A stretch of 64,000 nucleotides of DNA from a virus. Its lineage: Duplodnaviria > Caudoviricetes. The position numbers were made by a program, and so were the translations under genes. The stretch lies in the IMG/VR virus record IMGVR_UViG_3300025909_000005; one strand, given 5' to 3'. Within the stretch, counting starts at the first letter, position 1. Each line of letters opens with the position of its first letter. Below, piece after piece: positions 1,767 to 55,978 of the stretch. The notes under the pieces are model-generated. The model was not told the origin of the DNA. It saw nothing but the letters and a program-made list of their open reading frames with translations, and did not search any database.

Positions 1767-1793
1767 TAAATAGAGGATCCACAGAAAGGATCC
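1767..1793 (+). promoter_or_regulatory. Late promoter TAAATA plus GGATCC/GGATCC hairpin over the SD
   Basis: TAAATA 1767-1772; GGATCC 1775-1780 pairs with 1788-1793; ATG 1796. Confidence 0.6.
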
Positions 1794-1795
1794 CC

Positions 1796-2359
1796 ATGTC
1801 AGAAGAAAAGACCGTCATCAAGTCCAAGCGCAAGATGCGCCCTGGTGGTGGCAAGGCCAAGGGCAATGGCTTCGAAGGCACGGTCGCCAAGAAGCTCTCG
1901 GCGGCCCTCCCAATCAACTTCATTCGTTCTCCAGGTTCTGGTGCCCGCATCGGTGGCAAGAACTTCGCAACCGTCGGCGCCCTCATGGGCGAAGAGGTCA
2001 TGAAGCTCTTCAACGCAGACGTCGTGCCAATCAACGAGAAGGAAGCGGGCTACACGTTCCGCTACTCCATCGAGTGCAAGTTCTACGCCACGCAGGATCA
2101 CTTCACGTCCCTCGTGGCCCACACAGCAAACGTCTTCAAGTGGTTTGAGGAGTCTGTTGTTGATGCCCAGAAGATTGGTCGAAAGCCGATCCTGATCTTC
2201 AAGTGGAACCATACTCCCATCTTTGTTGCCACCCTCTCAGAGGAAGCGCGCTGGAAGATACCACGGATGGTGATCGGCGAACCATGTGGTCGTATACTTG
2301 ACATCTACGAGCTCGACGACCTTCTCAATGTCCCAGACTTCTGGGTCACCAAAACGTAA
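1796..2359 (+). CDS. Phage Holliday junction resolvase-like PD-(D/E)XK nuclease
   Basis: KAKGNGFE, RSPGSGA, ADVVP, SIECKFY, KPILIFK motifs. Confidence 0.75.
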   Translation: MSEEKTVIKSKRKMRPGGGKAKGNGFEGTVAKKLSAALPINFIRSPGSGARIGGKNFATVGALMGEEVMKLFNADVVPINEKEAGYTFRYSIECKFYATQDHFTSLVAHTANVFKWFEESVVDAQKIGRKPILIFKWNHTPIFVATLSEEARWKIPRMVIGEPCGRILDIYELDDLLNVPDFWVTKT

Positions 2360-2365
2360 CCTCCC

Positions 2366-2959
2366 ATGACAGATAGCACTCTGCCACGCTGGAGCGTGCG
2401 GCTCGATGCCACGCGCCCCACGACTGGCTTCTCCGACCTTCTTCCGATCGTCAACTCCCACTTCCGCGCCCATGAGGCCGTCGACAAGTTCCTAGGCCCG
2501 TACAACGCGAAGCAGCGCAACTCGCGCTACCCGTATCAACCACCTGATCGTGAGACCCTCCGCCAGCTCGTGAAGCAGGGCGGCATGAACGACTTCTCGT
2601 ATTCAGCGATGCTAAATAGCATCATCCGGTTCTGTGAGCAGCACAAGGGCCTCCGTGCTCCTCCTGCTCCGCACCCATCGACCATCCACTCGATTCAACT
2701 TCCACTCCCAGCCTTTGAGCTGAAGACAAAGAAGCCTGGAGAGACCGAGGTTCACATCATGGGTGCAGACGAACCGCTGATCGTCAAGGGGCTACGGGAC
2801 CCAGACACGGTCAAGTTCATCATCGTCAGACCGAAGTTGAGCCAGCTTGGCACGGCATCGGCAAAGAACTGGGAAATCCTGTTCTACCGCACGCCGCTCG
2901 GCTACATTCCAGACTGGGCGGATTCACATCTCAATCCCCGTTACAGTGGAGTTTTCTGA
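2366..2959 (+). CDS. Hypothetical protein
   Basis: 197 aa ORF directly after the resolvase, genome-typical codon usage. Confidence 0.6.
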   Translation: MTDSTLPRWSVRLDATRPTTGFSDLLPIVNSHFRAHEAVDKFLGPYNAKQRNSRYPYQPPDRETLRQLVKQGGMNDFSYSAMLNSIIRFCEQHKGLRAPPAPHPSTIHSIQLPLPAFELKTKKPGETEVHIMGADEPLIVKGLRDPDTVKFIIVRPKLSQLGTASAKNWEILFYRTPLGYIPDWADSHLNPRYSGVF

Positions 2960-3174
2960 TGCTAGTTGAATACACCCCAATCTCTTCCCTCAATGCAGGC
3001 GAACTTGCAGCTCTCAAGGCTGCCGTGAAGCACCAGGTCCTCGAAGGCCGTGGTACCCACTTCGTCTTCCAAGGCAAGACCTTCTCGATGAATGAACTCC
3101 GCGCAGCACAATCGCGCTGGTTGGCTGAAGATCGGGGCCCTGGCAAGCAGCTTCTGAATGAGTCGACTCTGTAA
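2959..3174 (+). CDS. Hypothetical protein
   Basis: 71 aa; start overlaps the upstream stop; its TAA forms part of the next late promoter. Confidence 0.55.
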   Translation: MLVEYTPISSLNAGELAALKAAVKHQVLEGRGTHFVFQGKTFSMNELRAAQSRWLAEDRGPGKQLLNESTL

Positions 3175-3197
3175 ATATCGGATCTAACAATCCGATA
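3172..3197 (+). promoter_or_regulatory. Late promoter TAAATA plus 8-bp hairpin
   Basis: TAAATA 3172-3177; TATCGGAT 3176-3183 pairs with ATCCGATA 3190-3197; AGGA SD, ATG 3207. Confidence 0.65.
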
Positions 3198-3206
3198 GGA
3201 CCCCAC

Positions 3207-3818
3207 ATGTCACAGACCTTCAAGGAGTTTCTGGCTGAAGCCCGAGACCCGAAGCGTACCTACACCGAGAAATCCGTCAAGGGTGTCGTTGAGCGCGTTA
3301 CCGCTCAGCTCAAGGGGTCCGACTCTGGCAATTGGACGAAGCTTGCACGTCGTTACGCCCGCCTTGAGGCCAGCCTCGTTGCGCTGAAGGAACAGCGCGA
3401 CCGCCTGAACCTGACGCTCAAGGACCAAGTTGCTGACGTCTTCGATCCTGCTGACGTCGTCCTGACCCGTGTGGTTGAGACGGCTCAGTTCACGATCACG
3501 CTGAACAAGCAGACCAAGAAGCCAGACACGACTGAGACTCGCATCGACTTCGAGAAGATTGCTGGTGCCCTTGCTGAGTTGATCAGCGATGACCTGCAGC
3601 CGAAGGTCGATGAGATCGTCAAGCAGTACACGACCGTTGAGGTTGTCCCAGGCAAGACAAATGCAGCTTCGCTGAAGGTCTCCAAGGAAGAGCTCAAGGA
3701 GGCCATGTCCTTTGGTCAGGTCACGGCTTGGGTCAAGCGCATGGTCAAATCGATCACTGACTGGGCTTCGCGCTACGATCGTAAGCTTGATGGACTTCGT
3801 GCACGGGCCGGCAAGTGA
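3207..3818 (+). CDS. Putative internal head protein (coiled coil), MSQTFKEFLAE tag
   Basis: CTS-like N-terminus; late promoter. Confidence 0.6.
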   Translation: MSQTFKEFLAEARDPKRTYTEKSVKGVVERVTAQLKGSDSGNWTKLARRYARLEASLVALKEQRDRLNLTLKDQVADVFDPADVVLTRVVETAQFTITLNKQTKKPDTTETRIDFEKIAGALAELISDDLQPKVDEIVKQYTTVEVVPGKTNAASLKVSKEELKEAMSFGQVTAWVKRMVKSITDWASRYDRKLDGLRARAGK

Positions 3819-7815: not shown

Positions 7816-8657
7816 TCTGTGAAAAAAGAGATCGGGTTGACCGGGAGGTCGACCTTCATGTCCTTCTTGCAGTCCTTGCAACAGAGCGTGACAGTCTGTG
7901 ATGGACCCCAGGTGTTTGTCTTCTCGATGGTCTCTGTGATCCGGTTCTGCCAAGGAGTCGTGATGCCGGAAACCCACTCACGAATCTGCTTCTTGTCTTC
8001 GATCCCGTCCACTGACTTGATCAGTGAGGTCAGGGTTACGACGACGTTCTCCTTGATGTCTTCAGTCTCAAACTTCTTCTTGCCTGCGTTCAGGTGGAAG
8101 AGCTTGATCATGTGAGCGAACTTCACAGGTTCGACCTTTACAACCTGTCCGTTGGGAAGCGTGCAGGTGTACTCCTCTTCGATCGTGGTTGGGTCCAGCA
8201 TCGGCATGTTCATGACGAGCTGCTCGATGTTCACGGAGTAGCCGTGCTCGGTGTGCTTGACCTTCTCAGAGCCATCTGGGAGGGTGAGCGTCTTCTTGGA
8301 CTCCTCGCAGTCGTGCGTGACTTGAATGTCGAAGTTCGGTCCATACGTCACCAACCTGAGGAAGTACATGATCGCGTCGATGTCGCGGCCGTAGAGCTCC
8401 GTTGCCTTCTTGATCTGCGGGATGCACTCAGCGAAGACACGCTCGATCGCCTTGCCGTTGAACAGGGTGTCTGGGTTCTTCAGGTCAATCTCAGCGAGAG
8501 CTGAGAGGGCGTGAACGTGGATCTCACCCTCCGACGCGTCGATCTCACCGTTCTTGTACAGAGCACCACGGGATGGGAGCTGAAACGTCTTGCCAGGAAG
8601 CTTGATCTTGGCAAGAAGCGGGTTTGTTGTGTCCATCTGGGGTTTCTCCAATGTCAT
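7812..8657 (-). CDS. gp26: Baseplate hub subunit (T4 gp26-like)
   Basis: KLPGKTFQLPSRG.LY, DIDAIMYFLRLVTYGP, C-terminal CKDC; start uncertain (8657 or 8636). Confidence 0.75.
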   Translation of the reverse strand: MTLEKPQMDTTNPLLAKIKLPGKTFQLPSRGALYKNGEIDASEGEIHVHALSALAEIDLKNPDTLFNGKAIERVFAECIPQIKKATELYGRDIDAIMYFLRLVTYGPNFDIQVTHDCEESKKTLTLPDGSEKVKHTEHGYSVNIEQLVMNMPMLDPTTIEEEYTCTLPNGQVVKVEPVKFAHMIKLFHLNAGKKKFETEDIKENVVVTLTSLIKSVDGIEDKKQIREWVSGITTPWQNRITETIEKTNTWGPSQTVTLCCKDCKKDMKVDLPVNPISFFTE

Positions 8658-8686
8658 AAATATGTCTCTCAGGATCATGATATTTA
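8657..8686. promoter_or_regulatory. Two face-to-face late promoters
   Basis: TAAATA on + at 8657-8662 and on - at 8681-8686, between divergent genes. Confidence 0.6.
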
Positions 8687-20629: not shown

Positions 20630-20850
20630 AGATCATGGACAGAGAGTACAGCTGGGAAGAGCTGGCTGACCTCGAGCGGGATGTCTCGGAGGCCATCTCC
20701 GATGCGCCGATTCCTGGTGAGTACGAGGGAACCATTCGCGTTGCGATTGTCTACATCCCTCCATATCCTGAAGGAGATGTACCCGGGCCCTGTATCTGTG
20801 GAAGCTGGCCAGGCGGCAAATGCCTGCGCTGTGAGGTGCAAGCGCCATAA
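20626..20850 (+). CDS. Hypothetical protein with C-terminal CxC/CxxC
   Basis: ATGA overlap; CICGSWPGGKCLRC. Confidence 0.5.
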   Translation: MKIMDREYSWEELADLERDVSEAISDAPIPGEYEGTIRVAIVYIPPYPEGDVPGPCICGSWPGGKCLRCEVQAP

Positions 20851-20866
20851 ATAGATTCTCAATCTA
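20848..20866 (+). promoter_or_regulatory. Late promoter TAAATA plus TAGATT/AATCTA hairpin
   Basis: TAAATA 20848-20853; stem 20852-20857/20861-20866; GGAGG SD. Confidence 0.65.
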
Positions 20867-20875
20867 GGAGGATCT

Positions 20876-21484
20876 GTGGAAAAACTATTCGAACGCCGCT
20901 TCACGAAGAAGAAAATCTCAGACGGCCACTGGGTCGTTGCTGATCCAGAAGGTGGTGAACTGCGTGGCTTCGGTGTCTTCACTGATGAAGACAAGATCGA
21001 TGACAAGCTCGACCAACTGAACGGCACGAGCAAGTCTCGCAAGAACGGTGGTCAAGGCGCGCAAGCAGGTATCGGCCTCGGCACAGGTGCTGGTCGCAGC
21101 GAGCGGGGAGATCGTCGAATGGCGACAACCGAGAGCGAACAGCAGACCTTCCCAATGCTGAAGGAACTGGGGCTTTTTGAGGACGTTGCTCCTGCAAAGG
21201 AGCAGATTTGGCAGTCAGAAATGCCGTTCGCTTTTGACGACAGCCGTTCTTCAAGCAGTCCGGCAGCTGAAGCTGCCAAGTTCGCAAAGCGCTTCAAGGT
21301 TCATCACAAGATGACGGTCGCAAATGGCCCTTCAGGTGGCTGGCCAGAGTTCCTTTTCTGGGGCCCACGCTCGAACATGGAAAAGCTGCTCAAGGTTTAC
21401 AACAAGGGCGCTGGTCTTTCCAAGGAAGAAGAACACCAAGGATTGGTGAAATCGAAGCGCAAGTACGACCCGAGCGCGTTCTAA
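20876..21484 (+). CDS. Late hypothetical protein inside the early region
   Basis: Own late promoter and terminator; MEKLFE and GLFED. Confidence 0.6.
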   Translation: MEKLFERRFTKKKISDGHWVVADPEGGELRGFGVFTDEDKIDDKLDQLNGTSKSRKNGGQGAQAGIGLGTGAGRSERGDRRMATTESEQQTFPMLKELGLFEDVAPAKEQIWQSEMPFAFDDSRSSSSPAAEAAKFAKRFKVHHKMTVANGPSGGWPEFLFWGPRSNMEKLLKVYNKGAGLSKEEEHQGLVKSKRKYDPSAF

Positions 21485-21489
21485 ACTCT

Positions 21490-21517
21490 ATGGGTCCTGA
21501 AAGCAGGACCCATTTTT
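21490..21517 (+). terminator. Intrinsic terminator
   Basis: ATGGGTCCTG-AAAG-CAGGACCCAT-TTTT. Confidence 0.85.
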
Positions 21518-23009: not shown

Positions 23010-23030
23010 GTTGCGTGTTAAAATGACCAT

Positions 23031-27522: not shown

Positions 27523-27548
27523 TAAATACCTGACTAGCAATCAGGTAT
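27523..27548 (+). promoter_or_regulatory. Late promoter TAAATA plus perfect 8-bp hairpin
   Basis: TAAATA 27523-27528; ATACCTGA 27526-27533 / TCAGGTAT 27541-27548; ATG 27553. Confidence 0.7.
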
Positions 27549-27552
27549 CTTC

Positions 27553-28413
27553 ATGCGCACAATCAAGATCATCTCGGTCAACCCAAACGTTGGTGGCACA
27601 CCAGGCTCCATCGTCGTTGCCGGTGACTTCACGGCCATCTTCAATGGCAAGTTCTATCGGGATCCGACAACTGGAGCCACTCTTCCAGCCTACACGGTCA
27701 ACCCAGGCTCCAACTACGACCTGATCGATGCGACGCAGTTCGACGTCTCAGACAACGCGAAGTACTCAGGCCGCTACACCGTCTACACACCAACTGGCTC
27801 AGGCGACCTGCCACCAAGCAGCCTGGGTGGTGGCAACACGACCATCTACGTCAACGAGGTCGTTCCTCCTCTGGTTTCTGGTGATGCACCAAGCGTCGCG
27901 TCAGATGGCAACGTCGACAACATCTCGACGTACCTGCTCCAGGCTGGCGGCACGACAATCATCGTGCCGCCTGGCGTCGACCTCACGACGTATCCGCTCG
28001 AGTTCCAAGGCCGCAACTCCATCGGTTGGGGTGAGGTGTTCGCGCAGAACTTCCTGAACCTGGCCAGCAACTTCTCAAGCCCTACTCCTCCAGCCAACCC
28101 ATTTGTCGGTCAGATCTACTACGATACCGACGACAGTCAAGTGCGCGTCTGGAACGGCACGAGCTGGGGGCTGCTGAACCAGGCTTCTTTCGGCACGACG
28201 GCTCGCTTCACGCAGTCAACTCCTGCTACCACCTGGACAGTCAACCACGGGCTGAACCTCCAGTCACCGTACATCGCCTTCGTTCAGTTCTTCGTTGATC
28301 GTGGAGCCGGCCCGAAGCTGATCATTCCCTCTGACGTCTCCTTCGTTTCTGCTAACCAGTTGACGGTCACGTTCTCCAACCCAGAGCAGGGCTACGTCCT
28401 GGTTCGTCCATGA
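27553..28413 (+). CDS. Virion structural protein (fibre/whisker-type motif)
   Basis: WGEVFAQNFLNLASNFSSPTPPANPFVGQIYYDT...WNGTSW; TWTVNHGL. Confidence 0.7.
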   Translation: MRTIKIISVNPNVGGTPGSIVVAGDFTAIFNGKFYRDPTTGATLPAYTVNPGSNYDLIDATQFDVSDNAKYSGRYTVYTPTGSGDLPPSSLGGGNTTIYVNEVVPPLVSGDAPSVASDGNVDNISTYLLQAGGTTIIVPPGVDLTTYPLEFQGRNSIGWGEVFAQNFLNLASNFSSPTPPANPFVGQIYYDTDDSQVRVWNGTSWGLLNQASFGTTARFTQSTPATTWTVNHGLNLQSPYIAFVQFFVDRGAGPKLIIPSDVSFVSANQLTVTFSNPEQGYVLVRP

Positions 28414-32386: not shown

Positions 32387-32575
32387 TTCTTCGCGCAGTG
32401 GTAGCAGCGGAATTTTAAAGGTCTCCCCGGGATGGGGCACCTGAGTTCCATTCAACTCGTTGAACATGCGACGAAGGACGATCAAGTCGTCCTGCGTGTA
32501 GTCATGCCTGCCCTTCAGTCGAAGGACAGCATCGATGGTCTCTGTGGGCCGGAACTTGTGCTCGATGTACTTCAT
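32384..32575 (-). CDS. Small LysM-like late protein
   Basis: HKFRPTETIDAVL...ELNGTQVPHPGETFKIP; minus-strand TAAATA 32581-32586, 5 nt before ATG. Confidence 0.55.
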   Translation of the reverse strand: MKYIEHKFRPTETIDAVLRLKGRHDYTQDDLIVLRRMFNELNGTQVPHPGETFKIPLLPLREE

Positions 32576-32589
32576 CGAGCTATTTACGC

Positions 32590-32817: not shown

Positions 32818-32869
32818 GATGGGCTCCTTGGAATAGATCCATTGTACAACAGATCTAGGCTCTTGTACA

Positions 32870-33124: not shown

Positions 33125-33170
33125 GCTGGCTCCTTCTGTTACAGTTGATCCGATTATACATCAGAGCCCA

Positions 33171-33198
33171 TAAATAGTCGATCGAAAAGTGGATCGAC
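33171..33198 (+). promoter_or_regulatory. Late promoter TAAATA plus perfect 7-bp hairpin
   Basis: TAAATA 33171-33176; GTCGATC 33177-33183 / GATCGAC 33192-33198; ATG 33201. Confidence 0.7.
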
Positions 33199-33200
33199 AC

Positions 33201-35132
33201 ATGACAGCAACAGACATCTCCCAGAAGTCAACACACGACCTGTGGATTGACGCGCGCCAGTTCAGCATCAGCATCTCTCGTCCTTCCCCAACGACGATCC
33301 AGCTTACCATCACTCGACCAACGACGATGGCAGTGGCTGATGGCGCTCTGATCCTGCTCTCTGACCTGCCGATCAACGCGATCAACTACCCAGAAGATGG
33401 CACGATCTACAACCCATCAACTGACTGGCTGGCTCCGTCACCAACGAATGGTCAGATTCCAGCGCTCGATGGTGCGCACGTAGTCGGCTTCTACTCGAAC
33501 ATCCAGGAACTGCCGTTCCCAACTCCAACGGCAACCTCGACAAGCCTCAATGAGTCAGGAACGGCTGAGGCCTACCAGTCGTTCACCATCACAGTCACGA
33601 ACACAAACCCGAACACGATCTACTACGCGTCGGTTCACGCCTCCTCGAACGTCCTCCAGTACTACCCGATCGGTGTCTCGTCCTACCCACTTCAAGGTGA
33701 GCTGACTGAAGGGCGCAACACGAACCTGGCAAGCGCGTTCACGGGTAACATTCCCGTTTATGACTCGGCACCTCTCTCGCCAGCTCCTGGCTCTGTCTAC
33801 TTCGATAAGCAGCTGAACCTTGTTCAGTACTTCGACGGCGTCTCGGGCTCTTGGATTCCAACCCGCTCTGACTCGATTGTCTCGGGTGCCTACAATCCAG
33901 GTGTGCTTGGACAAGTCTACCTTTACGGTGGTGGACAGCTGAAGGTCTTCAATGGCAAGAAGTGGGTGGACATGACCCCCTCGAACACGCAGCTCCGTCA
34001 AGGCGTGACGTGGGTACCGCTTACGCGCTTCTCTGCTACCACGACGCCGCCTCAGCTGCCAGTTCTGGGTGAGATGTACTACGACTACACGCTGCAGCGC
34101 ATCCAGTACTGGGATGGCGCAATGTGGGTCTTCCCAAACTCCACGAACACGCTTTTCAATACAGGTGCCCAGGTAGTTCCTGCCTTTGTGACGCCGCTCA
34201 CCATTGAACCGCAGCTGCTCTCGGATCCTTACATCGGTCAGCTCTTCTACAACCTGACCACCCGCACGCTCAATGCCTGGAACGGCGTCTCCTGGAACCA
34301 GGTCAACACTGACCAGCAGGGCTCGCCGTCCTACGACAAGATCGCGATTGGCGATGATGGCTCCTACGCCGCCCGCCTGCAGATGATAAAGGTCTGTCAG
34401 TCCCAGCTTGGCTGGCCGCAGCAGTGCGTCGAGCTCAAGGAGGAGCAGTTCAACATCGCCCTTGACAATGCACTTGCTAACTACCGCCAGCTCTCGTCGG
34501 GCGCCTACACGCGTCGCTTCATCATCTACAAGCTGATCCCTGGTCAGCAGCAGTACTACCTCAACAACAAGGCCGACCGTACAGACTCGATCGTCGACAT
34601 CCACAAGATCCACCGCATGGGCCCACTTGGCATCTACGGCGGTGGACCGAATGACGTTTGGGCTCAGGCCTTCGCACAGCGCTACTACGACATGGCTGCT
34701 GGGGGCGGTGACCTGCTTTCCACGCAGCTCGTTGCCATGTACAGCGAGGAGCTGCAGCGCATGTTTGCTGGTGAGCTCATGTTCCAGTGGGACGAGCCAA
34801 CCCGTGAACTCTACATCACGCGCGCCGTTCGTGGCTACGAGACGGTCATCATCGAGGCAATGCTCGAGCGCTCTGAACAGGAAATCATCAACGACCGCTG
34901 GTCCAACCAGTACATCCAAAACTGGGCGATGGCTGAGCTGAAGTACATGCTTGGCATGATCCGCTCGAAGTTCACGTCTGGTACTCCAGGCGCGGCTGGT
35001 TCCATCAACTTGAACGGTGAACTCCTTATTTCTGAGGCTCGTCAAGACATGACTGAGCTGAAGGAAGAGCTCCTTAACTACGAGTACGGCGGTCAAGTCG
35101 GTCTCGGCAACACGGCGTTCCTCATCGGATAA
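33201..35132 (+). CDS. gp13: Neck protein (T4 gp13-like) with long N-terminal extension
   Basis: C-terminal LGWP..CVELKEEQFNIALDNAL, SNQYIQNWAMAELK, INLNGELLISEA. Confidence 0.8.
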   Translation: MTATDISQKSTHDLWIDARQFSISISRPSPTTIQLTITRPTTMAVADGALILLSDLPINAINYPEDGTIYNPSTDWLAPSPTNGQIPALDGAHVVGFYSNIQELPFPTPTATSTSLNESGTAEAYQSFTITVTNTNPNTIYYASVHASSNVLQYYPIGVSSYPLQGELTEGRNTNLASAFTGNIPVYDSAPLSPAPGSVYFDKQLNLVQYFDGVSGSWIPTRSDSIVSGAYNPGVLGQVYLYGGGQLKVFNGKKWVDMTPSNTQLRQGVTWVPLTRFSATTTPPQLPVLGEMYYDYTLQRIQYWDGAMWVFPNSTNTLFNTGAQVVPAFVTPLTIEPQLLSDPYIGQLFYNLTTRTLNAWNGVSWNQVNTDQQGSPSYDKIAIGDDGSYAARLQMIKVCQSQLGWPQQCVELKEEQFNIALDNALANYRQLSSGAYTRRFIIYKLIPGQQQYYLNNKADRTDSIVDIHKIHRMGPLGIYGGGPNDVWAQAFAQRYYDMAAGGGDLLSTQLVAMYSEELQRMFAGELMFQWDEPTRELYITRAVRGYETVIIEAMLERSEQEIINDRWSNQYIQNWAMAELKYMLGMIRSKFTSGTPGAAGSINLNGELLISEARQDMTELKEELLNYEYGGQVGLGNTAFLIG

Positions 35133-40635: not shown

Positions 40636-40641
40636 TAAATA
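40636..40641 (+). promoter_or_regulatory. Late promoter TAAATA
   Basis: GGAATAAATAC upstream of the sheath gene. Confidence 0.7.
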
Positions 40642-40692
40642 CCCGCATGAACAACCAGAGCAGGTCTATCTGCCCACAATAGGAGAACAACA

Positions 40693-42537
40693 ATGGCAAC
40701 ACTGGTTTCACCAGGTACGTCGGTCACTGTTACTGATCAGAGCTATTTCATCCCTGCAACGGCAACGACAGTACCACTGATCTTCATTGCCACGGCAGCA
40801 GGAAAGACCCAGACTGACGGAGTTACGCCAGCAGCAGGTACCCTCGAGCACTCTGTCGTCCGTACCGTCACGTCTCTCAACCAATCGCTTCAGCTTTACG
40901 GCGTTCCAAAGTTCCGCGCAGACACATCTGGCAACCAATTCCACGGTGATGCACGCAACGAACAGGGCCTGTACGCGCTCAATCACTTCCTTGGCGTCGG
41001 CAACGTCGCCTACGTCGTTCGCGCCAACATTGACCTGACCGACGAGCCACAGACCTTCATCAGCCTTGGCACTCCAGTTATTTCTGGTGAACCAACGTTC
41101 TACGGCATTGGCAACGGTACCCTCTCGAACTTCGCTACGCAAGGTTCGACTGTCAAACCACAGCTCATCACTGTTACGTTCAGCTCGCCTTCGACCTTCT
41201 CGGTAACGGGCTCGGTCGCTGGCTACATCGGCGCTGGTTCTGTTGGTCTGCCGTTCGCATCGAACGTGATCAACTTCAACTCGGCTGCTGGCTCCGTCGC
41301 ATTCGCAGCTGGTGACAAGTTCACCTTCGCTCTCGTGTACATGGCGCAAGCCGGGTCAGGTAACGTCGGTAATGGTTCCCTCGTCAATCTCGTGACTGAC
41401 ACCCTCGCCGTTCCTGAAACTCTCACCGTCTCGTTCACCTCGCCAACAGCCTTCACGGTCACTGGCACGGTCTCGGGCTCTGCTGGTTCTGGCGTGATCA
41501 ACACGCCGTTCGACAACAACCGCGTCAACTTCACGGTCATTCCTGGCACCGTCGCCTTCGCAACTGGCGATGAGTTCACGATCGACGTTTCCTCGGTCAC
41601 CGTCTCGGCTCCTCTCGGTGCCAACGACGCAGCCAAGCGCGTTGCAATCGTTACCGCTCTCCAAGCTGAAATCAACAGCAACGTTGACGTTCGCTCTGAG
41701 ACGTACGAGTACAACCTCGTCCTCTGCCCAGGTTTCCCTGAGGTCGTCGACGAACTGCTCGCCCTCTCGGCTGACGTCAAGGACGAAGTGTTCGTCATCG
41801 CTGACACGCCTTCGTACCTGTCGCCTGAACAGACCGCTCAATGGGGTCTCACGTCGGAGCGCTTCAACTCCACGTCGGCTGCGTACTACTACCCATGGGC
41901 TCTCGCCTCAAACCTCGATGGTACCAACGTTCTCGTTGCTCCGTCGGCCGTGGCGCTGCGCACCTTCGGTGTGAGCGACAACGCAGGCTACGTCTGGAAC
42001 GCACCAGCTGGTGTCTCGCGCGGTCTCGTTACTGGCGTCTCGCAAGTTGGTTACATCACTGGCACACCAGGCACGGCAACGACCTTCGTTCCTGTGAACC
42101 TGAACCAGGGCCAGCGCGACATCCTCTACGAGTACGACACCAACATCAACCCGATCACGTTCTTCCCAGGTCGTGGTCTCCTGGTTTGGGGTGCCAAGAC
42201 TTCGGCTCCAGCTGCATCGTCGCTTGACCGCGTCGGTCCAGTTCGCCTCGTCATGTACCTGCGCCGCTCGCTGCGTAAGGGTTCGTTCCCATTCACGTTC
42301 GAACCAAACGACAAGATCACTCGCGACAACTTGAAGGCAGCTGCTGACGCAATCCTGCATGACATCCTTGTCAAGCGCGGTCTGTCTGACTTCGCAACGT
42401 ACTGCGATACGTCGAACAACTTCGGTTCACGCATCGACAACAACGAGCTGTGGCTTGACGTCGCGATCAAGATCGTCCACGATGCTGAATTCATCTACAT
42501 CCCAATCCGCGTCCTGACAGCTGACGCAACACTCTAA
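40693..42537 (+). CDS. gp18: Tail sheath protein (T4 gp18-like)
   Basis: LVSPGTSVTVTDQS, AYYYPW, VAPS, WNAPAG..RG, INPITFFPGRG..VWG.KT, RGLSDF. Confidence 0.93.
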   Translation: MATLVSPGTSVTVTDQSYFIPATATTVPLIFIATAAGKTQTDGVTPAAGTLEHSVVRTVTSLNQSLQLYGVPKFRADTSGNQFHGDARNEQGLYALNHFLGVGNVAYVVRANIDLTDEPQTFISLGTPVISGEPTFYGIGNGTLSNFATQGSTVKPQLITVTFSSPSTFSVTGSVAGYIGAGSVGLPFASNVINFNSAAGSVAFAAGDKFTFALVYMAQAGSGNVGNGSLVNLVTDTLAVPETLTVSFTSPTAFTVTGTVSGSAGSGVINTPFDNNRVNFTVIPGTVAFATGDEFTIDVSSVTVSAPLGANDAAKRVAIVTALQAEINSNVDVRSETYEYNLVLCPGFPEVVDELLALSADVKDEVFVIADTPSYLSPEQTAQWGLTSERFNSTSAAYYYPWALASNLDGTNVLVAPSAVALRTFGVSDNAGYVWNAPAGVSRGLVTGVSQVGYITGTPGTATTFVPVNLNQGQRDILYEYDTNINPITFFPGRGLLVWGAKTSAPAASSLDRVGPVRLVMYLRRSLRKGSFPFTFEPNDKITRDNLKAAADAILHDILVKRGLSDFATYCDTSNNFGSRIDNNELWLDVAIKIVHDAEFIYIPIRVLTADATL

Positions 42538-43812: not shown

Positions 43813-43831
43813 GCTCGAAAGAGCTTCTGAG

Positions 43832-43853
43832 AAGGGATCCCGTGGGATCCCTT
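43832..43853 (+). terminator. Hairpin terminator
   Basis: AAGGGATCC-CGTG-GGATCCCTT then TGTTG. Confidence 0.7.
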
Positions 43854-43881
43854 TGTTGTATAATGGGCTGTAAATATGACC

Positions 43882-44472
43882 ATGAACCTTACCTTCAAAG
43901 AATACCTGCAAGAAGAAGCCGTTGGCAACTTCAACGAGAACGAGCCACGCCACGTCTCTGACGAGTTCGTTCGTGGCGGTCGACCGCTCAACAAGGCGGC
44001 GATCAAGGAGCTGAAGGGTAAGGGGATCCAAACGGTCATCTGCCTGCTTCGCGCAGACAAGAAGTACCCAGCTGAGATCTCAGGCGTCGAAGCCGAGAAG
44101 GAAGCTGTCGAAGCTGCAGGCATGAAGTTCGTTTCCATCGATATGGACGAACGTAAGAACCCATCTGAAGCGGACATCAACAAGTTCCTGGCCGCCGTGA
44201 AGAGCGGCGGTAAGTCGTACGCGCACTGCTCCGCAGGTCGAGACCGAGTCGGCCTGATGAACGCGATCTACGACATGAAGGTCCTGCACATGTCCTACAA
44301 GGACGCGTACACCCGCTACCTCAAGGGTGGCCATGACTACGCAACCTGGACCAACCTCGACAAGTTCTTCTACAAGTACGCGCACGGCACACCTGAAGCC
44401 GCGAAGGACGCGATCGAAGCAGGCGCCCACCCAGCCGACGCGAAGTGGCTGTACCAATACATCACAGAATGA
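43882..44472 (+). CDS. Dual-specificity/tyrosine phosphatase-like protein with MNLTFKEYLQEE tag
   Basis: FVRGGRP, GIQTVICL, AHCSAGRDRVG (Cx5R); TAAATA 43871-43876, 5 nt before ATG. Confidence 0.85.
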   Translation: MNLTFKEYLQEEAVGNFNENEPRHVSDEFVRGGRPLNKAAIKELKGKGIQTVICLLRADKKYPAEISGVEAEKEAVEAAGMKFVSIDMDERKNPSEADINKFLAAVKSGGKSYAHCSAGRDRVGLMNAIYDMKVLHMSYKDAYTRYLKGGHDYATWTNLDKFFYKYAHGTPEAAKDAIEAGAHPADAKWLYQYITE

Positions 44473-45383: not shown

Positions 45384-45412
45384 TAAATAGAGGATACCTA
45401 TGGGACCTCTAT
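45384..45412 (+). promoter_or_regulatory. Late promoter TAAATA plus hairpin covering the start codon
   Basis: TAAATA 45384-45389; ATAGAGG 45387-45393 / CCTCTAT 45406-45412. Confidence 0.65.
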
Positions 45413-46784
45413 GGCCGACATTACACCAATTCTCAACAGCACGGGCATCTCGCTAGAGCGCGCAGCCGCCGACAAGTTCGGTGCAGCTGTTGAAACGTTC
45501 GCTACGCAGAACCTTGGTGCTGGTTTAGCTGCCAACGCAACAGGATCCACGAACGTTCCTGTGAACCGTGGCGATGGTTCGTTCTACGCGAGCTCTTACG
45601 CCGCGTCGATCACTGCAGGCCACGACTACCGTCCAAAGCAGAAGTTCCTCTTCAAGGTCGAGTTCGTCTTCACGGCTGCTGCCATGGCAGCCTACCCTGA
45701 GGTCTTCGCAGGTGCTAAGTCAAACGACTTCACCTTCATGATCAAGGCCGTTGACCGTCCCAAGATCACGTTCGAGTACTCAGACGACCTGAACTACTAC
45801 AACTTCCGTTCCAAGGCCATCACGCGCGTTCGTCACCAAGAGCTGACGATGACGTTCATCGATGACGTTGGCAACCGCGTGCTGAACTTCTTCCGTGCGC
45901 TCATGATGATCTACCAGCCAATCACGAAGCGCCAGCTGACTCGTGAAGGCCTGACATATCAGGACCGCATCAAGGCACCGACTGGTGTCAACCTCGGTTC
46001 GGGCATGGAGTTCTCCTCGCCTGGTGATCTTGACCAGCTCGACTACTCCCACCGCGGCGTGCTTCAGCCTGGCATCTCTACCAATGACATCGGCGCGGTC
46101 ATTCAAACCATTCGCATCCACCAGATCTACACTGATCCAGGTGTGCCACTTGGTCAGACCGTCAAGGACGTCGTCTTCGACTTCATCAATGCTCGCCTTG
46201 TCTCGTTCGACCTTGAGGATCTCTCTCACGAGTCCAGCGACTTCGGCCAGATGAACATGCAGTTCGACTACGACTGGATGGAGATCGTGAACCTCGGCTC
46301 AATCAACGCGACAGCAGATGTCGGTGCCAAGGCCTCGCTGCCATCCATCGGCGGAGCACCAACCGACTTCTCACCGAACACCGGTGGTGGAGCCAGCCCA
46401 GGCAACTCGAACCCCTTCGCCAGCATCATCACGAACCAGCTTGGACGTGCTGGGCAGCAGGTCACATCCACTGCTGTTGGCAAGGCGATCACCACGATCG
46501 CAGGCAATGGCCAGTTTGCATCGCTCATCAACTCACAAGTGTCGAACCTTGCCGGTGGCATCGTCGGCCAGGCAGGTCGCAACCTTGGCACGGCCTACTC
46601 AGGCTCTGTCCTGCAGCAGGTCAGCGCAGCAGGCTCTTCTGTCTTGAACATCATTCGACCAGCCGCCTCTACTTCTAGCTCGACTCAGCAGGTCGTAGAC
46701 TCAGCAATCGTGGGACCGCAGCAGGTTGACAAGGTCGTCATCGCCGAGAGTGACGTTCTCAACACACTACCAGGATCCATCTAA
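45411..46784 (+). CDS. Tail-tube-like baseplate/tube initiator protein with low-complexity C-terminus
   Basis: PKQKFLFKVEF, IKAVDRPKI, NYYNFR, LTMTFIDDVGN, MQFDYDW. Confidence 0.7.
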   Translation: MADITPILNSTGISLERAAADKFGAAVETFATQNLGAGLAANATGSTNVPVNRGDGSFYASSYAASITAGHDYRPKQKFLFKVEFVFTAAAMAAYPEVFAGAKSNDFTFMIKAVDRPKITFEYSDDLNYYNFRSKAITRVRHQELTMTFIDDVGNRVLNFFRALMMIYQPITKRQLTREGLTYQDRIKAPTGVNLGSGMEFSSPGDLDQLDYSHRGVLQPGISTNDIGAVIQTIRIHQIYTDPGVPLGQTVKDVVFDFINARLVSFDLEDLSHESSDFGQMNMQFDYDWMEIVNLGSINATADVGAKASLPSIGGAPTDFSPNTGGGASPGNSNPFASIITNQLGRAGQQVTSTAVGKAITTIAGNGQFASLINSQVSNLAGGIVGQAGRNLGTAYSGSVLQQVSAAGSSVLNIIRPAASTSSSTQQVVDSAIVGPQQVDKVVIAESDVLNTLPGSI

Positions 46785-52313: not shown

Positions 52314-52990
52314 TCACCTTCAAGCAGTTCCTGAACGAAACGACGGTCGAAAAGTACTCCACGGATCTAGAAGAAATTGTGGACCTCATTCAGCAGGACT
52401 GCCAGCCATTCCTGCGCGAGGCCGGCGACTACGCGCTCTTCCGCGGGTTCAGGGGCCGACGAGGCTTGACTGATGATCACGGCCACCACATTGGGCCCAT
52501 CTACTGGCTCAAGGCAACTCCACGCACTGACCGTCGGCCACTTGACTCGTATAAGCTGGCTCATGACCTCATGGACGACTGGTTCGAGAAGAACTACGGT
52601 GTGCGCGCTCGGTCTGAGGGCGTCTTTTGCGCTCCTCGTCAGGCTCAGGCTGCTTCGTATGGGCGCGCCTTCTACGTCTTTCCAATTGGCAACTTCAAGG
52701 TTCTCTGGGCCAGCCACGATGTGGCTGGAACGAGCGGCGTCAAGGACACTGCAAGCCTCTCAGATTCCATCTACAGGTTTGCTGAGACCGTGGAGCCGGA
52801 CAAGCAGGCCGACGTTGCTGACCGCGTCATGACGAACCACAATCACTGGCATGAAGGCAACGTGAAGAAGGCAGTCCAGTCTGATGCCGAGATCACGCTC
52901 ATCTGCGACAAGTACTACGCCGTGGCCTGTGGGCCAAATGTACACTACACTGACCTCATTTCTGGAAAACAGTTGCCCCGTGAAGAGTAA
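52310..52990 (+). CDS. ART-like paralog with MITFKQFLNE tag
   Basis: LFRG, RSEGVFCAP, ASYGRAFYVFP, SDAEITLIC; GTG start. Confidence 0.5.
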   Translation: MITFKQFLNETTVEKYSTDLEEIVDLIQQDCQPFLREAGDYALFRGFRGRRGLTDDHGHHIGPIYWLKATPRTDRRPLDSYKLAHDLMDDWFEKNYGVRARSEGVFCAPRQAQAASYGRAFYVFPIGNFKVLWASHDVAGTSGVKDTASLSDSIYRFAETVEPDKQADVADRVMTNHNHWHEGNVKKAVQSDAEITLICDKYYAVACGPNVHYTDLISGKQLPREE

Positions 52991-53013
52991 ATAAGAGATC
53001 TACCGGATCTCTT
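52988..53013 (+). promoter_or_regulatory. Late promoter TAAATA plus perfect 8-bp hairpin
   Basis: TAAATA 52988-52993; AAGAGATC 52993-53000 / GATCTCTT 53006-53013; ATG 53015. Confidence 0.7.
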
Positions 53014-53014
53014 C

Positions 53015-53599
53015 ATGACGCACATCGCCTACATTCACGGACTGAATTCTAGTCACACGTCGTTCAAGTACATTCATGAGATGCTACCTGAACACAAGGC
53101 CACGTTCCTTGACTACGAGAGTCACCAGGACCTCGGCACCTCGATCGCGCAGGTGCTTCGGAAGTTCCCTAAGAGTGAGCCTGTTGTCATCGTCGGTCAC
53201 TCCCTAGGTGGCGTCATCGGCACGCTAATCGCGGCTGAGTACCCTGACCGCGTCCTCAAGCTCGTCACGATGTCCTCGCCCTTCAGTGGTTCCCGCGCGG
53301 CTTCAACCCTTCGCTGGATCCCTGGCTCCCTGAAGATCCTGAACGACATCACGCCAGCCTCCTCATACATCAAGAAGGTGAAGTCGCTGAAGTTGGACGT
53401 TCCAACTATCTCGATCATCTCCACGGGCGGTCACCTGCCTACATCACCAGAGCCAAATGACAGCGTCGTCTCACTGTCCTCTCAGCGCGCCTTGAAGTTC
53501 GGAAAGAAGATCGAGGTCAACGTATCCCACTTTGAAGTCCTCATGCATGACAAGACCGTCAAGACGATCAAGGACTTCGTCTTCGGAGACACCGAATGA
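53015..53599 (+). CDS. Alpha/beta hydrolase
   Basis: YIHGLNS, VGHSLGG (GxSxG), NDSVV, SHFE. Confidence 0.9.
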   Translation: MTHIAYIHGLNSSHTSFKYIHEMLPEHKATFLDYESHQDLGTSIAQVLRKFPKSEPVVIVGHSLGGVIGTLIAAEYPDRVLKLVTMSSPFSGSRAASTLRWIPGSLKILNDITPASSYIKKVKSLKLDVPTISIISTGGHLPTSPEPNDSVVSLSSQRALKFGKKIEVNVSHFEVLMHDKTVKTIKDFVFGDTE

Positions 53600-54396
53600 A
53601 GATCCACTCAAAGCGCCACCGCGACGCTCACGCAATCCATCCGTACACGTCTCACCAGGTTCAAATGATGATGGACCCCGTGAAGTTCATCAACGCGTAC
53701 ATGCACACTCCCTACGCCATCGGTGGCACAAAGCAGATCAGGCTCCATCCCTTCCAGGAGGACTTCATCAACTGCATCAAGCAGAACAAAAACGTCATCG
53801 CTGTCATGCCACGTCAGTCAGGCCAGACGATGACTGCTTTGGCCTTCTGCCTCTGGGAAAGCATGTTTGTTGTTGGCGCTGACGACACCATGATCCTTAC
53901 AACGGATCAAATGAACGTGCAACCGCTCGCAGACATCCTGAAGACGATGCTCAACTCTGTTCCAGCGTTCATGCGACCATCTGTTCTACAGCAGAATCGA
54001 ACAGCTATCTCGTTCGCGAAGGGTTCGCGCATTGAAGTTGCTCACATCAACCCATCTACTGTCTGTGGCCGATCACCAACTAGAGTTCACCTCGACTCGT
54101 TTGCAGCCGCGTCTGACCAGCGACAGAAGGACGCGTGGTACACCCTCATCGGTACTCTCGTCACGTCCAACAACATCTCCATGACCGGTACTCCTCGCGG
54201 TACCACTTCAACGTTTGCCCACATCTGGCGCGAGGCCAACCTCCAGATTGCCAATGGCAAGACGTTTAACGACTTCACGCCGTTCTTCAAGAACGTGCAT
54301 GACATGACTCACTTGGACCCACTCTGGCTCCAGTCAACTCGCAAGGCGATTGGCGAGTCAGCGTGGAAGTCAGAATTTGAGTGCCAGTTCCTATGA
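53596..54396 (+). CDS. Terminase-large-subunit ATPase paralog with degenerate Walker motifs and no nuclease domain
   Basis: LHPFQ, PRQSGQT (vs RQCGKT), VHLDSFA (vs IYLDELA), TGTPRG, WKSEFECQFL. Confidence 0.75.
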   Translation: MKIHSKRHRDAHAIHPYTSHQVQMMMDPVKFINAYMHTPYAIGGTKQIRLHPFQEDFINCIKQNKNVIAVMPRQSGQTMTALAFCLWESMFVVGADDTMILTTDQMNVQPLADILKTMLNSVPAFMRPSVLQQNRTAISFAKGSRIEVAHINPSTVCGRSPTRVHLDSFAAASDQRQKDAWYTLIGTLVTSNNISMTGTPRGTTSTFAHIWREANLQIANGKTFNDFTPFFKNVHDMTHLDPLWLQSTRKAIGESAWKSEFECQFL

Positions 54397-55937
54397 AGAA
54401 TCCCCAGCTAAAGCGCGCCTACTCCACAGACGAGTATACCCCTCAAATGATTGGTGAGCTTGCCAAGTGCAAGAAGGATCCCGTCTACTTCATCCGTACC
54501 TACGTGAAGGTCCAACACCCGGTCCGTGGTACGGTTCCGTTTGACCTGTACGAGTACCAAGAGCGGTTCATCCGTCACATGCAGGACAACCGCTTCACGA
54601 TCACGCTTCAGCCACGCCAGTGCGGCAAGACCCTGACGGTGGCCATGTTCCTGTTGTGGTACGCGATGTTCAATGAAGACGCGCTGCTCCTGATCGCCTC
54701 GAAGAACCAGGGCCACGCCCTTGAGATCGCCGCGCGCGTTCGCTTCGCCTACGAGGAACTTCCAAACTGGATCAAGTGCGGTCTCAAGTACTACAACCGC
54801 CACAACATCGAGTTCGACAACGGTTCGCGCATCATCTCGGAAGCCACGACCGAAAAGACAGGTCGTGGTCTCGCTATCACGAAGATCTACCTCGACGAGT
54901 TGGCCTTCATTAACCCACGCATCCAACAGGAGCTGTGGAAGTCTCTGACCCCTACCCTTTCGACTGGTGGTTCGGCTATCATCTCGTCGACGCCAAACGG
55001 TGACACCGAGCTCTTCGCCAGCCTGTGGCGCGAGGCCAACACCGAGGGAGATGGCAAGCCAGGCCGTAACGGCTACGCACCTTTCCAGGTTGACTGGCGC
55101 GAACACCCTGAACGCAGCGACGACTACTGGGACACGATGGTTTCTCAGCTTGGTCTTCTTGCCTGCCGTCAGGAAGTTGGCTGCGAGTTCCTCTCGTCTG
55201 ACGCCCTGCTCATCAACTCCCTTCGCCTGCATGAGCTTCACGAATCCATGGTCCACCACACGGACATGGGCTTCAAGTTCTGGAAGGCGGACGAGGACAT
55301 TGGTGGAAGTGGCAAGACCTACCTCGTCGGTGTCGACCCTGCAACCGGTGGCGGTAACGACTACTCGGTCATCGAGGTGTTTGAGTTCCCGAGCCTGGAG
55401 CAGGTTGCTGAGTGGCGATCCAACGAGATCAAGATCCCGATGCTGTACGCCAAGCTCAAGTGGATCTTGAACAAGCTCTCTGCTCCGATCAACCGTGGAC
55501 GTGCTGAGGTGCTATGGACCTTCGAACGGAACGGCATCGGTGAAGCTGTCTCGACGCTCTACTACAACGACGAACGACAGCCAGAAGCTGAACTCTTCAA
55601 TGACAACCCTGCCAAGCTGGGCGTCTTTACCTCGGGCAAGACGAAGGTCCTGACCTGTCTGCAGCTCAAGGCGGCAGTCGAGCGCGTCAAGGGCGGCCTG
55701 AAGATCAACTCAGCCCAGCTCCTGAACGAGCTCAAGAACTTCGTGGCCAAGGGTGGATCGTACGAGGCCAAGTCTGGTGCCACAGACGACTGTGTCATGG
55801 CGCTGGTGCTCGTCATGCGACTGCTCAAGCGTATCGGCGACTACGACGACCGGGCCTTCAGAATGGTGAACGAATACGTAGAACCTGACGTGGATGATCA
55901 GTGGGGAGATGAGCCAGTCCCGTTCTCGATCTCTTAA
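54381..55937 (+). CDS. gp17: Terminase large subunit (T4 gp17-like)
   Basis: LYEYQ, PRQCGKT, YLDELAF, SSTPNG, VGVDPATG..DYS, FERNGIG, ATDDCVMAL. Confidence 0.95.
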   Translation: MPVPMKNPQLKRAYSTDEYTPQMIGELAKCKKDPVYFIRTYVKVQHPVRGTVPFDLYEYQERFIRHMQDNRFTITLQPRQCGKTLTVAMFLLWYAMFNEDALLLIASKNQGHALEIAARVRFAYEELPNWIKCGLKYYNRHNIEFDNGSRIISEATTEKTGRGLAITKIYLDELAFINPRIQQELWKSLTPTLSTGGSAIISSTPNGDTELFASLWREANTEGDGKPGRNGYAPFQVDWREHPERSDDYWDTMVSQLGLLACRQEVGCEFLSSDALLINSLRLHELHESMVHHTDMGFKFWKADEDIGGSGKTYLVGVDPATGGGNDYSVIEVFEFPSLEQVAEWRSNEIKIPMLYAKLKWILNKLSAPINRGRAEVLWTFERNGIGEAVSTLYYNDERQPEAELFNDNPAKLGVFTSGKTKVLTCLQLKAAVERVKGGLKINSAQLLNELKNFVAKGGSYEAKSGATDDCVMALVLVMRLLKRIGDYDDRAFRMVNEYVEPDVDDQWGDEPVPFSIS

Positions 55938-55947
55938 GGTCTGCCCA

Positions 55948-55978
55948 TAAATAGCCCTGTAATTTCTAACACAGGGCT
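55948..55978 (+). promoter_or_regulatory. Late promoter TAAATA plus perfect 8-bp hairpin
   Basis: TAAATA 55948-55953; AGCCCTGT 55953-55960 / ACAGGGCT 55971-55978; ATG 55984. Confidence 0.7.

What the first reader, a model, noticed from the sequence alone, without database searches (positions are those of the whole stretch)
1767..55978. Late promoters paired with RBS-masking hairpins whose 5' arm would be lost from the late mRNA
Seen: at eight late genes TAAATA runs straight into the 5' arm of a perfect 6-8-bp inverted repeat whose 3' arm covers or abuts the SD or start codon: 1767 (GGATCC), 3172 (TATCGGAT), 20848 (TAGATT), 27523 (ATACCTGA), 33171 (GTCGATC), 45384 (ATAGAGG), 52988 (AAGAGATC), 55948 (AGCCCTGT). 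The arms are unrelated in sequence, so structure is what is conserved. If the start site is about 6 nt after the motif (see leaderless finding), 0-3 nt of the arm remain. Known: T4 uses this lock for a few genes (e, soc, 49, I-TevI) to silence read-through early RNA. Inference: here it is a general design that lets late genes sit among early operons without premature translation.
Basis: partly seen in the sequence, partly recalled or inferred. Interest (0 to 1): 0.7.

Follow-up and report, generated by a model that had tools for sequence, protein, structure and literature searches.

The report
Late-promoter hairpins that mask gene starts
In this uncultured giant soil phage, eight late genes carry a short RNA hairpin that buries their ribosome-binding region and can form only on RNA read through from upstream; this is a trick already known from a few phage T4 genes, used here unusually often and kept in related phages.

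Summary
All eight box-plus-hairpin sites exist as described, and a ninth lies on the minus strand at 32586. Shuffling the same leaders predicts 0.23 such hairpins; 8 are seen. The 5' arm usually starts inside the TAAATA box, so RNA begun at that promoter cannot contain it. Opening the ribosome-binding region is predicted to cost 8-15 kcal/mol on read-through RNA and 1-5 kcal/mol on the predicted late RNA.

Five of the seven genes that have orthologs keep a hairpin there, often with different arms. Some orthologs are leaderless instead, or have neither box nor hairpin. Relatives encode a T4 gp55-type late sigma. The same scan on T4 recovers genes e and soc.

Two sites (20848, 27523), possibly a third (33171), follow early operons; the others lie inside late clusters. 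At three sites the upstream stop codon is the box's own TAA, so terminating ribosomes could open the lock. In five relatives about 11% of late leaders carry a lock. No transcript starts are mapped.

Verdict: new members of the known T4-type translational lock. This scan had already noted the design in other windows of this genome and in another phage.

The parts
1767..1798 (+). Late box 1767-1772; hairpin GGATCC 1775-1780 / GGATCC 1788-1793; ATG at 1796 of a PDDEXK/RusA-like endonuclease
   Evidence: -9.2 kcal/mol. Opening the ribosome-binding region costs 10.5 kcal/mol on read-through RNA and 2.4 on late RNA. Orthologs keep a lock, with other arms in G005, L173 and L169. Family assignment.
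3172..3209 (+). Late box 3172-3177; hairpin TATCGGAT 3176-3183 / ATCCGATA 3190-3197, which abuts the AGGA SD; ATG at 3207
   Evidence: -9.9 kcal/mol. The upstream ORF 2959-3174 stops at the TAA of the box. The hairpin is not kept in the G001 and G002 orthologs.
20843..20878 (+). Late box 20848-20853; the best fold pairs AGATTCTC 20853-20860 with the SD region GAGGATCT 20868-20875, and CCAT before the box with the GTG at 20876.
   Evidence: -11.8 kcal/mol, z = -2.7. The site lies at the end of an early unit driven by promoters at 18397 and 18729. A terminator at 21490-21513 follows the gene. The upstream ORF stops at the TAA of the box.
27523..27555 (+). Late box 27523-27528; hairpin ATACCTGA 27526-27533 / TCAGGTAT 27541-27548 (an anti-SD-like ACCT pairs with AGGT); ATG at 27553 of a virion-protein-like gene
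   Evidence: The arms are kept in all five orthologs while the loops vary. The site lies behind early units with promoters at 23016, 24464 and 25679.
33171..33203 (+). Late box 33171-33176; hairpin GTCGATC 33177-33183 / GATCGAC 33192-33198; ATG at 33201 of a head-tail adaptor-like gene
   Evidence: -11.3 kcal/mol, z = -3.2. Hairpins with different arms occur in G001, G003, G004 and G005.
45384..45413 (+). Late box 45384-45389; hairpin ATAGAGG 45387-45393 / CCTCTAT 45406-45412, which pairs the AT of the ATG at 45411 (tail-tube-like gene) with the AT of the box
   Evidence: -9.4 kcal/mol, z = -1.1, the weakest of the eight. Orthologs mostly lack it; they have an upstream terminator or a leaderless start instead.
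52988..53017 (+). Late box 52988-52993; hairpin AAGAGATC 52993-53000 / GATCTCTT 53006-53013; ATG at 53015 of an alpha/beta hydrolase, with no SD
   Evidence: Orthologs in G001, L007 and L019 have 9-bp locks with unrelated arms. L012 is leaderless. G002 and L001 have neither box nor hairpin but do have an SD.
55948..55986 (+). Late box 55948-55953; hairpin TAGCCCTGT 55952-55960 / ACAGGGCTA 55971-55979; ATG at 55984 of a 1255-aa gene
   Evidence: -14.1 kcal/mol, z = -3.6. Orthologs in G002, G003, L007 and L001 have perfect stems with unrelated arms, and G004 has a composite stem.
32554..32586 (-).
   Evidence: The 63-aa gene is conserved and is leaderless behind the box in G002, G003 and L092, but the hairpin is not conserved.

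Best explanation
These are T4-type translational locks. TAAATA is the -10-position box of late promoters read by a gp55-family phage sigma, and transcription starts about 5-6 nt after it. On RNA that enters from upstream, nucleotides of the box and the first few transcribed positions pair with the SD and/or start codon of the next gene, so 30S subunits cannot bind. RNA begun at the gene's own late promoter lacks that 5' arm and is open.

The effect is that translation of these genes depends on firing of their own promoter. Leaderless starts, which orthologs use interchangeably, achieve the same thing.

Shown here: the sequences, their non-randomness, the predicted energies, conservation across relatives, and gp55 in relatives. 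Inferred: the start site, the existence of read-through RNA, and the block of translation.
For: - The box is enriched and sits next to gene starts. Five leaderless genes have exactly TAAATA-N5-ATG. Together with the T4 rule that the box occupies the -10 position (PMC2988020; PMC7892883), this places +1 about 6 nt after the box.
- gp55 homologs occur in G001, G002, G004 and G005 (E = 1e-26 to 1e-34).
- Locks: 8 seen against 0.23 expected in the window, and 24 against 4.5 in relatives.
- 5' arm starts peak at the last 2-3 nt of the box. 13 of 19 hairpins extend at least 2 nt into the box (P = 4e-10), so the selected helix cannot exist in the promoter's own RNA.
- In nine hairpins across the genomes the AU (six) or the whole AUG (three) of the start codon is inside the 3' arm; in six of the nine the 5' arm begins inside the box.
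- Opening the ribosome-binding region costs 8-15 kcal/mol on long RNA against 1-5 on late RNA at lock sites. The difference is about 0 at most other leadered late sites.
- Orthologs of genes 1796, 27553, 33201, 53015 and 55984 keep a lock, often with unrelated arms. Orthologs that lack the promoter also lack the hairpin.
- G-U pairs add stems beyond chance (11 against 5.5 expected), whereas A-C pairs do not (20 against 24). This favours sense-strand RNA.
- The same scan recovers T4 e and soc. The T4 mechanism is documented in PMC3014915.
Against:
- Five of the eight sites lie in late clusters, so timing control cannot be their purpose.
- At three sites the upstream stop codon is inside the box, so terminating ribosomes would open the helix.
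- Non-late genes with intergenic spacers also have hairpins at the ribosome-binding region in 11-15% of cases.
- In relative G001 there is no enrichment (3 of 69).
- The hairpin at 3172 and the tail-tube hairpin at 45384 are not conserved.
- The stems are short (6-9 bp, -9 to -14 kcal/mol).
Confidence: 0.6

Rival explanations
1. The hairpins are translational-coupling devices between adjacent cistrons. They keep the downstream start closed until a ribosome terminating at the upstream stop codon melts them. Their overlap with the late box is a by-product of 25-45 nt intergenic spacers.
For: At 3172, 20848 and 52988 the upstream ORF ends at the TAA of the box, 1-2 nt before the 5' arm. At 1767 and 27523 the stop is 10 nt before the arm. 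Non-late genes with spacers also carry hairpins at the ribosome-binding region in 11-15% of cases.
Against: At 33171 there is no co-directional upstream gene. At 45384 and 55948 the stop lies 12-14 nt before the arm. About 20 of the 31 lock sites with a measured gap lie more than 40 nt from the upstream gene. Coupling does not explain why pairing systematically runs into the box, or why orthologs without the promoter lack the hairpin.
Confidence: 0.15
2. The hairpins are RNA-stability or 3'-end elements. They could protect the 3' end of the upstream message, or act with the U-rich complement of the box (UAUUUA) as weak terminators for antisense transcription. Masking of the ribosome-binding region would then be incidental.
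For: The terminator scan flags the minus-strand versions of three sites (1795-1773, 953-934, 33198-33177), where a stem is followed by TATTTA.
Against: No T-run follows the 3' arm on the + strand. When the stem includes ATA, only UUUA remains on the minus strand. A-C pairs, which would be G-U in antisense RNA, are not enriched, whereas sense-strand G-U pairs are. The 3' arm tracks the start codon: it ends within 12 nt of the start in 32 of 55 hairpins.
Confidence: 0.08
3. The inverted repeat acts at the DNA level, as a promoter-proximal palindrome that modulates opening or recognition of the late promoter, possibly through paired GATC sites. It is not an RNA structure.
For: Arm starts sit at a fixed register relative to the box. 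TAAATA-N3-GATC is strongly enriched, and the GATC is mirrored in the 3' arm at several sites.
Against: Most arms are unrelated in sequence, so no common binding protein is likely. The position of the 3' arm follows the start codon and SD rather than a fixed distance from the box, with loops of 3-22 nt. G-U pairs are enriched. T4 offers a sufficient RNA-level precedent.
Confidence: 0.07
4. The hairpins are 5'-terminal stabiliser hairpins that are part of the late mRNA itself, as in the ompA leader.
For: Some late leaders in relatives do carry hairpins that begin 7 nt or more after the box and would be inside the late RNA, for example G001 240933 and G002 10434.
Against: For six of the eight window sites the 5' arm includes box nucleotides, which a promoter cannot transcribe. 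A hairpin that abuts an SD-less start would also inhibit translation.
Confidence: 0.05

Closest known systems
Phage T4 gene e (lysozyme) inhibitory leader hairpin with internal late promoters (reviewed by Uzan and Miller 2010, PMC3014915)
   Same: The late box lies in the DNA that encodes the 5' strand of a helix pairing with the SD and AUG. Long early RNA is closed and late RNA is open. The arm chemistry is even alike: T4 has AATACCT/AGGTATT and window 27523 has ATACCTGA/TCAGGTAT.
   Different: The box here is the 6-mer TAAATA in a 56% GC giant soil phage. The genes locked are structural and DNA-processing genes, not the lysis gene. Eight locks fall in 64 kb, whereas T4 has about four known in 169 kb. 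Nothing has been tested experimentally.
T4 soc, gene 49 (endonuclease VII) and I-TevI start-region hairpins; Aeh1 mobE hairpin (Gibb and Edgell 2009, cited in PMC3014915)
   Same: The start region is sequestered on upstream-initiated RNA and released by a late promoter close to the 5' arm. Like T4 gene 49, window gene 1796 is a junction-resolvase-type nuclease, which is an analogy and not homology.
   Different: The proteins are unrelated. Most read-through RNA here would come from other late promoters, not early ones.
Leaderless late genes of T4-related giant phages (TAAATA-N4-6-ATG), noted earlier in this scan
   Same: The logical outcome is the same: the start codon is usable only on RNA begun at the gene's own promoter. 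Orthologs switch between the two designs (genes 53015 and 45411).
   Different: A leaderless start involves no RNA structure.
Translational coupling hairpins in polycistronic operons and RNA phages
   Same: The hairpin lies over the downstream start, next to the upstream stop codon, at three of the eight sites.
   Different: Here a promoter inside the helix gives a second, ribosome-independent way to open it.

Membership tests
T4-type start-region lock released by an internal late promoter | A late promoter box of the T4 type, read by a gp55-family sigma | tested here: met
   TAAATA occurs 25 times against 2.7 expected, is strand-biased and lies next to gene starts. The box is conserved before orthologs down to 38% identity. 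gp55 (phrog_234) is found in four of five relatives. The window's own genome could not be searched because none is held.
T4-type start-region lock released by an internal late promoter | The helix includes the SD and/or the start codon | tested here: met
   The 3' arms end between -10 and +1 relative to the start. The fold at 20848 pairs GGAGG and GTG. Opening costs 8-15 kcal/mol. This is prediction only.
T4-type start-region lock released by an internal late promoter | The 5' strand of the helix is encoded at or upstream of the late start, so late RNA lacks it | tested here: met
   In six of eight sites the arm contains 1-3 box nucleotides. With +1 at position 6 after the box, 0-3 arm nucleotides remain. 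The extension into the box is non-random.
T4-type start-region lock released by an internal late promoter | Mapped late 5' ends inside the helix | not testable with these tools
The start is inferred from the leaderless N5 spacing and the T4 rule.
T4-type start-region lock released by an internal late promoter | Earlier-class transcripts read through the site without a terminator | tested here: inconclusive
   Predicted extended -10 promoters and no terminator lie upstream of 20848 and 27523. The other sites have only late promoters upstream. None of the 32 lock sites has an upstream terminator-like hairpin, against 16 of 194 other leadered late sites (P = 0.08).
T4-type start-region lock released by an internal late promoter | Translation is repressed on long RNA and active on late RNA | not testable with these tools
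   This needs reporters, toeprinting or ribosome profiling.
Intrinsic terminator | A G+C-rich stem followed directly by a U-run | tested here: not met
   No T-run follows any of the eight 3' arms on the + strand. Only the minus-strand copies are followed by TATTTA.
5'-terminal stabiliser hairpin of the late mRNA | The whole hairpin lies within the transcript, at its 5' end | tested here: not met
   Box nucleotides form part of the stem in six of eight sites.
Translational coupling hairpin | The upstream stop codon is close enough (about 10 nt or less) for a terminating ribosome to melt the 5' arm | tested here: inconclusive
   Met at 3172, 20848 and 52988. Borderline at 1767 and 27523. Not met at 33171, 45384 and 55948.

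The most novel reading that the evidence does not exclude
In this clade of uncultured soil giant phages, a sizeable share of late genes would be hard-wired so that only RNA begun at the gene's own promoter can be translated. Two interchangeable devices would do this: leaderless starts, and hairpins that pair the promoter box itself with the start codon or SD. Upstream terminators would be a third way to insulate a gene. On this reading it is a genome-organising principle, promoter-gated translation inside long co-directional gene arrays, and not a timing trick for a few dangerous genes. The structure is conserved while arm sequences turn over.
Probability: 0.3. Interest if true: 0.55.

Novelty: new member of a known kind. 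Interest (0 to 1): 0.4.

Why it matters
If the locks work as predicted, the T4 device is not an oddity of a few T-even genes. It would be an old and widespread part of gp55-type late gene expression, kept by selection across phages that share only 40-60% protein identity.

The finding also yields a simple rule for annotating metagenomic giant phages: a late box, then a helix into the box, then a start codon.

The sites in late clusters suggest a second purpose besides timing. They may uncouple each gene's output from transcription that arrives from upstream.

Tried and rejected
- Whole genome: none is held for this window, so the share of locks among all late promoters of this phage is unknown.
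- A megablast of 8 kb against known phages found nothing.
- A search with the N-terminal 500 aa of gene 55984 hit only a promiscuous 40-70 residue segment in unrelated contigs and gave no orthologs. Single-protein scans for genes 53015 and 27553 returned only G001.
- Comparing mean folding energy of late leaders with control leaders showed no overall difference in relatives. The AT-rich box and upstream terminators confound this comparison, so I replaced it with position-specific and shuffle tests.
- The raw G-U against A-C comparison favoured A-C. This turned out to be a composition effect and reversed once compared with shuffles.
- Chance was rejected. A plus-strand terminator and a 5' stabiliser hairpin were rejected on sequence grounds.
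- RNase III processing was considered, but by general knowledge stems of 6-10 bp are too short.
- The ninth hairpin at minus-strand 32586 is not conserved, so it is not counted as support.


Full report
**What the window is.** The window is 56% G+C and is packed almost entirely with + strand genes. It has no close DNA relative among sequenced phages. Its tail-tube-like protein matches Ralstonia, Xanthomonas and Stenotrophomonas giant phages only distantly. IMG/VR holds many uncultured relatives, with contigs up to 350 kb. I fetched five of them whole or in large part: G001 (349.7 kb, 97% complete), G002, G003, G004 and G005. Earlier notes of this scan call the source a giant soil phage.

**The box.** TAAATA occurs 25 times against 2.7 expected from dinucleotide shuffles, 21 of them on the + strand. 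About 21 copies lie no more than 50 nt before a gene start. The box, often preceded by CCA, is kept before the tail-tube gene in relatives down to 38% identity.

Five window genes have exactly TAAATA-N5-ATG and one has N6. Two tail-tube orthologs have N4. In T4 the late box sits at the position of the bacterial -10 element, about one helical turn before the start (PMC2988020; PMC7892883). The leaderless spacing therefore puts +1 at the fifth or sixth nucleotide after the box. Four of the five relatives encode a clear homolog of T4 gp55, the late sigma (phrog_234, E = 1e-26 to 1e-34). Reading TAAATA as a T4-type late promoter is well founded, although no start site has been mapped.

**The hairpins.** Stems are 6-9 perfect pairs and loops 3-12 nt. 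The 5' arm begins between 3 nt inside the box and 3 nt after it. The 3' arm ends between 10 nt before the start codon and 1 nt into it. Folding energies are -8.8 to -14.1 kcal/mol, and the eight shuffle z-scores combine to -6.8.

It pairs AGATTCTC with the SD region GAGGATCT, and pairs the CCAT before the box with the GTG start. A ninth case lies on the minus strand at 32586, where a leaderless ATG sits in the 5' arm. Its gene is conserved but the hairpin is not.

**More than chance?**
- Nine of 25 boxes are followed by such a hairpin, against 3.2% of random positions (P = 5e-8).
- Shuffling the leader between box and start codon predicts 0.23 locks among the 14 leadered late genes; 8 are seen. 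In the five relatives 24 are seen against 4.5 expected.
- The comparison with real leaders is more sobering. Non-late genes with an intergenic spacer have a hairpin at the ribosome-binding region in 11-15% of cases. That makes the window 8/14 against 4/23 (P = 0.016). For short spacers across all six genomes it is 11/44 against 12/106 (P = 0.03).
- In relatives, locks occur at 11% of leadered late promoters, and G001 shows no enrichment.

**The most telling feature.** The 5' arm start peaks at the last two or three box nucleotides. Among hairpins with at least 5 pairs starting right after the box, 13 of 19 extend 2 nt or more into it, where about 9% is expected (P = 4e-10). In nine hairpins across the six genomes the 3' arm takes in the AU (six) or the whole AUG (three) of the start codon, and in six of the nine the 5' arm begins inside the box. 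A promoter cannot transcribe its own -10 box. The helix that selection maintains can therefore exist only on RNA coming from upstream, or in DNA.

G-U pairs add lock-type stems beyond shuffle expectation (11 against 5.5, P = 0.025). A-C pairs, which would be G-U on the other strand, do not (20 against 24). This favours sense-strand RNA.

**Predicted consequence.** Making positions -12 to +3 single-stranded costs 8.3-14.9 kcal/mol on RNA that starts 60 nt upstream. It costs 1.2-5.0 kcal/mol on RNA that starts 6 nt after the box. At the other leadered late genes the difference is -1.8 to +1.7, with one exception at 43152.

**Comparative evidence.**
- Gene 27553: all five orthologs keep (T)ACCTGA/TCAGGT(A), while the loops differ in sequence and length.
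- Gene 1796 (PDDEXK/RusA-like nuclease): locks occur in about 8 of 15 distinct relatives. Some share GAGGATC. Others use TAGCTCCA, GTCAGATC or AATAGGA. G002 has a 10-pair stem with two G-U pairs.
- Gene 53015 (alpha/beta hydrolase): the window, G001, L007 and L019 have 8-9 pair locks with unrelated arms. L012 is leaderless. G002 and L001 have no box and no hairpin, but do have an SD.
- Gene 55984: the window and four of six orthologs have perfect stems with unrelated arms, and G004 has a composite stem.
- Gene 33201: four of seven orthologs have a hairpin. One of them (G005) pairs the whole box with TATTTA.
- The hairpins at 3172 and 45384 are not conserved. Tail-tube orthologs mostly have an upstream terminator or a leaderless start instead.
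- Gene 20876 has no orthologs in the set.

**Positive control.** The same scan on T4 recovers gene e (AATACCT/AGGTATT, with the box in the 5' arm) and soc (9 pairs). Those are 2 real locks, plus a palindromic promoter pair, among 24 exact TATAAATA sites that precede a gene. The T4 mechanism for e, soc, 49 and I-TevI, and its conservation in e orthologs, is documented in PMC3014915.

**Where the interpretation falls short.** Extended -10 promoters (TGnTAnAAT), several of them leaderless, lie at 5302, 18397, 18729, 23016, 24464, 25679, 29566, 31038 and 61782. Only 20848 and 27523 sit directly at the end of such early units. Gene 20876 is followed by a strong terminator at 21490-21513, so early RNA should run through it. 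Site 33171 may receive read-through from 31038 across a minus-strand block.

Sites 1767, 3172, 45384, 52988 and 55948 lie in late clusters, so the read-through RNA there would come from other late promoters. At those sites the lock cannot be about timing. More probably it makes each gene's output depend on its own promoter.

At 3172, 20848 and 52988 the upstream ORF ends at the TAA of the box, 1-2 nt before the 5' arm. A terminating ribosome would unwind the helix, so on translated read-through RNA these three would behave as coupling devices, not absolute locks.

**Verdict.** The mechanism is most likely the T4-type lock (about 0.6). The claim of a general design for mixing late genes into early operons is only partly supported. 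The finding adds new members to a known kind. This scan had already noted the same design in other windows of this genome and in another phage.

Noticed in passing
window 1767, 3172, 13707, 33171, 52988; also G002 and G004: GATC sits exactly at positions +4 to +7 after the box (TAAATA-N3-GATC). Counts are 5 of 25 window boxes, 7 of 91 in G002 and 5 of 32 in G004, against 0.5-1.2% per position (P = 1e-6 to 6e-5). It is probably an initiator preference with +1 at the A, and it seeds the GATC...GATC tops of several stems.
   Followed up: partly
window 40636-40695; G003 near 136414 (-); G005 near 95488 (+): The leader of the 614-aa gene at 40693 begins with a leaderless mini-ORF, TAAATA-N4-5-ATG AAC AAC/AAT CAG (MNNQ...). 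In the window it stops at a TAG that overlaps the AGGAG SD. The same arrangement is kept in two distant relatives.
   Followed up: partly
window 8657-8686: Two TAAATA boxes on opposite strands form a 30-nt palindrome (TAAATAT...ATATTTA), so the two predicted starts would cross each other. Similar box-to-box palindromes occur in G001 (35658/35677) and in T4 (77351/77369).
   Followed up: no
window 18729, 23016, 29566, 31038, 61782: Extended -10 (sigma70-type) promoters lie 5-7 nt before an ATG with no SD, so early genes also appear to be leaderless.
   Followed up: partly
G001, G003, G002 and L092 upstream of the gene 33201 orthologs; window 32586-33171: A conserved element, GCATTAGYTGC-TAAATA-GCGG, lies between the divergent adaptor gene and a conserved 63-aa gene. 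Its reverse complement carries TGCTATAAT, so a late box and an early -10 appear to overlap on opposite strands. The small gene is driven by a late box in some relatives and by the early type in others.
   Followed up: partly
window 43830-43885: A terminator (GGGATCCC gtg GGGATCCC followed by a T-run) is followed 15 nt later by a leaderless late promoter at 43871. This is an example of insulation by an upstream terminator, the arrangement most tail-tube orthologs use.
   Followed up: no
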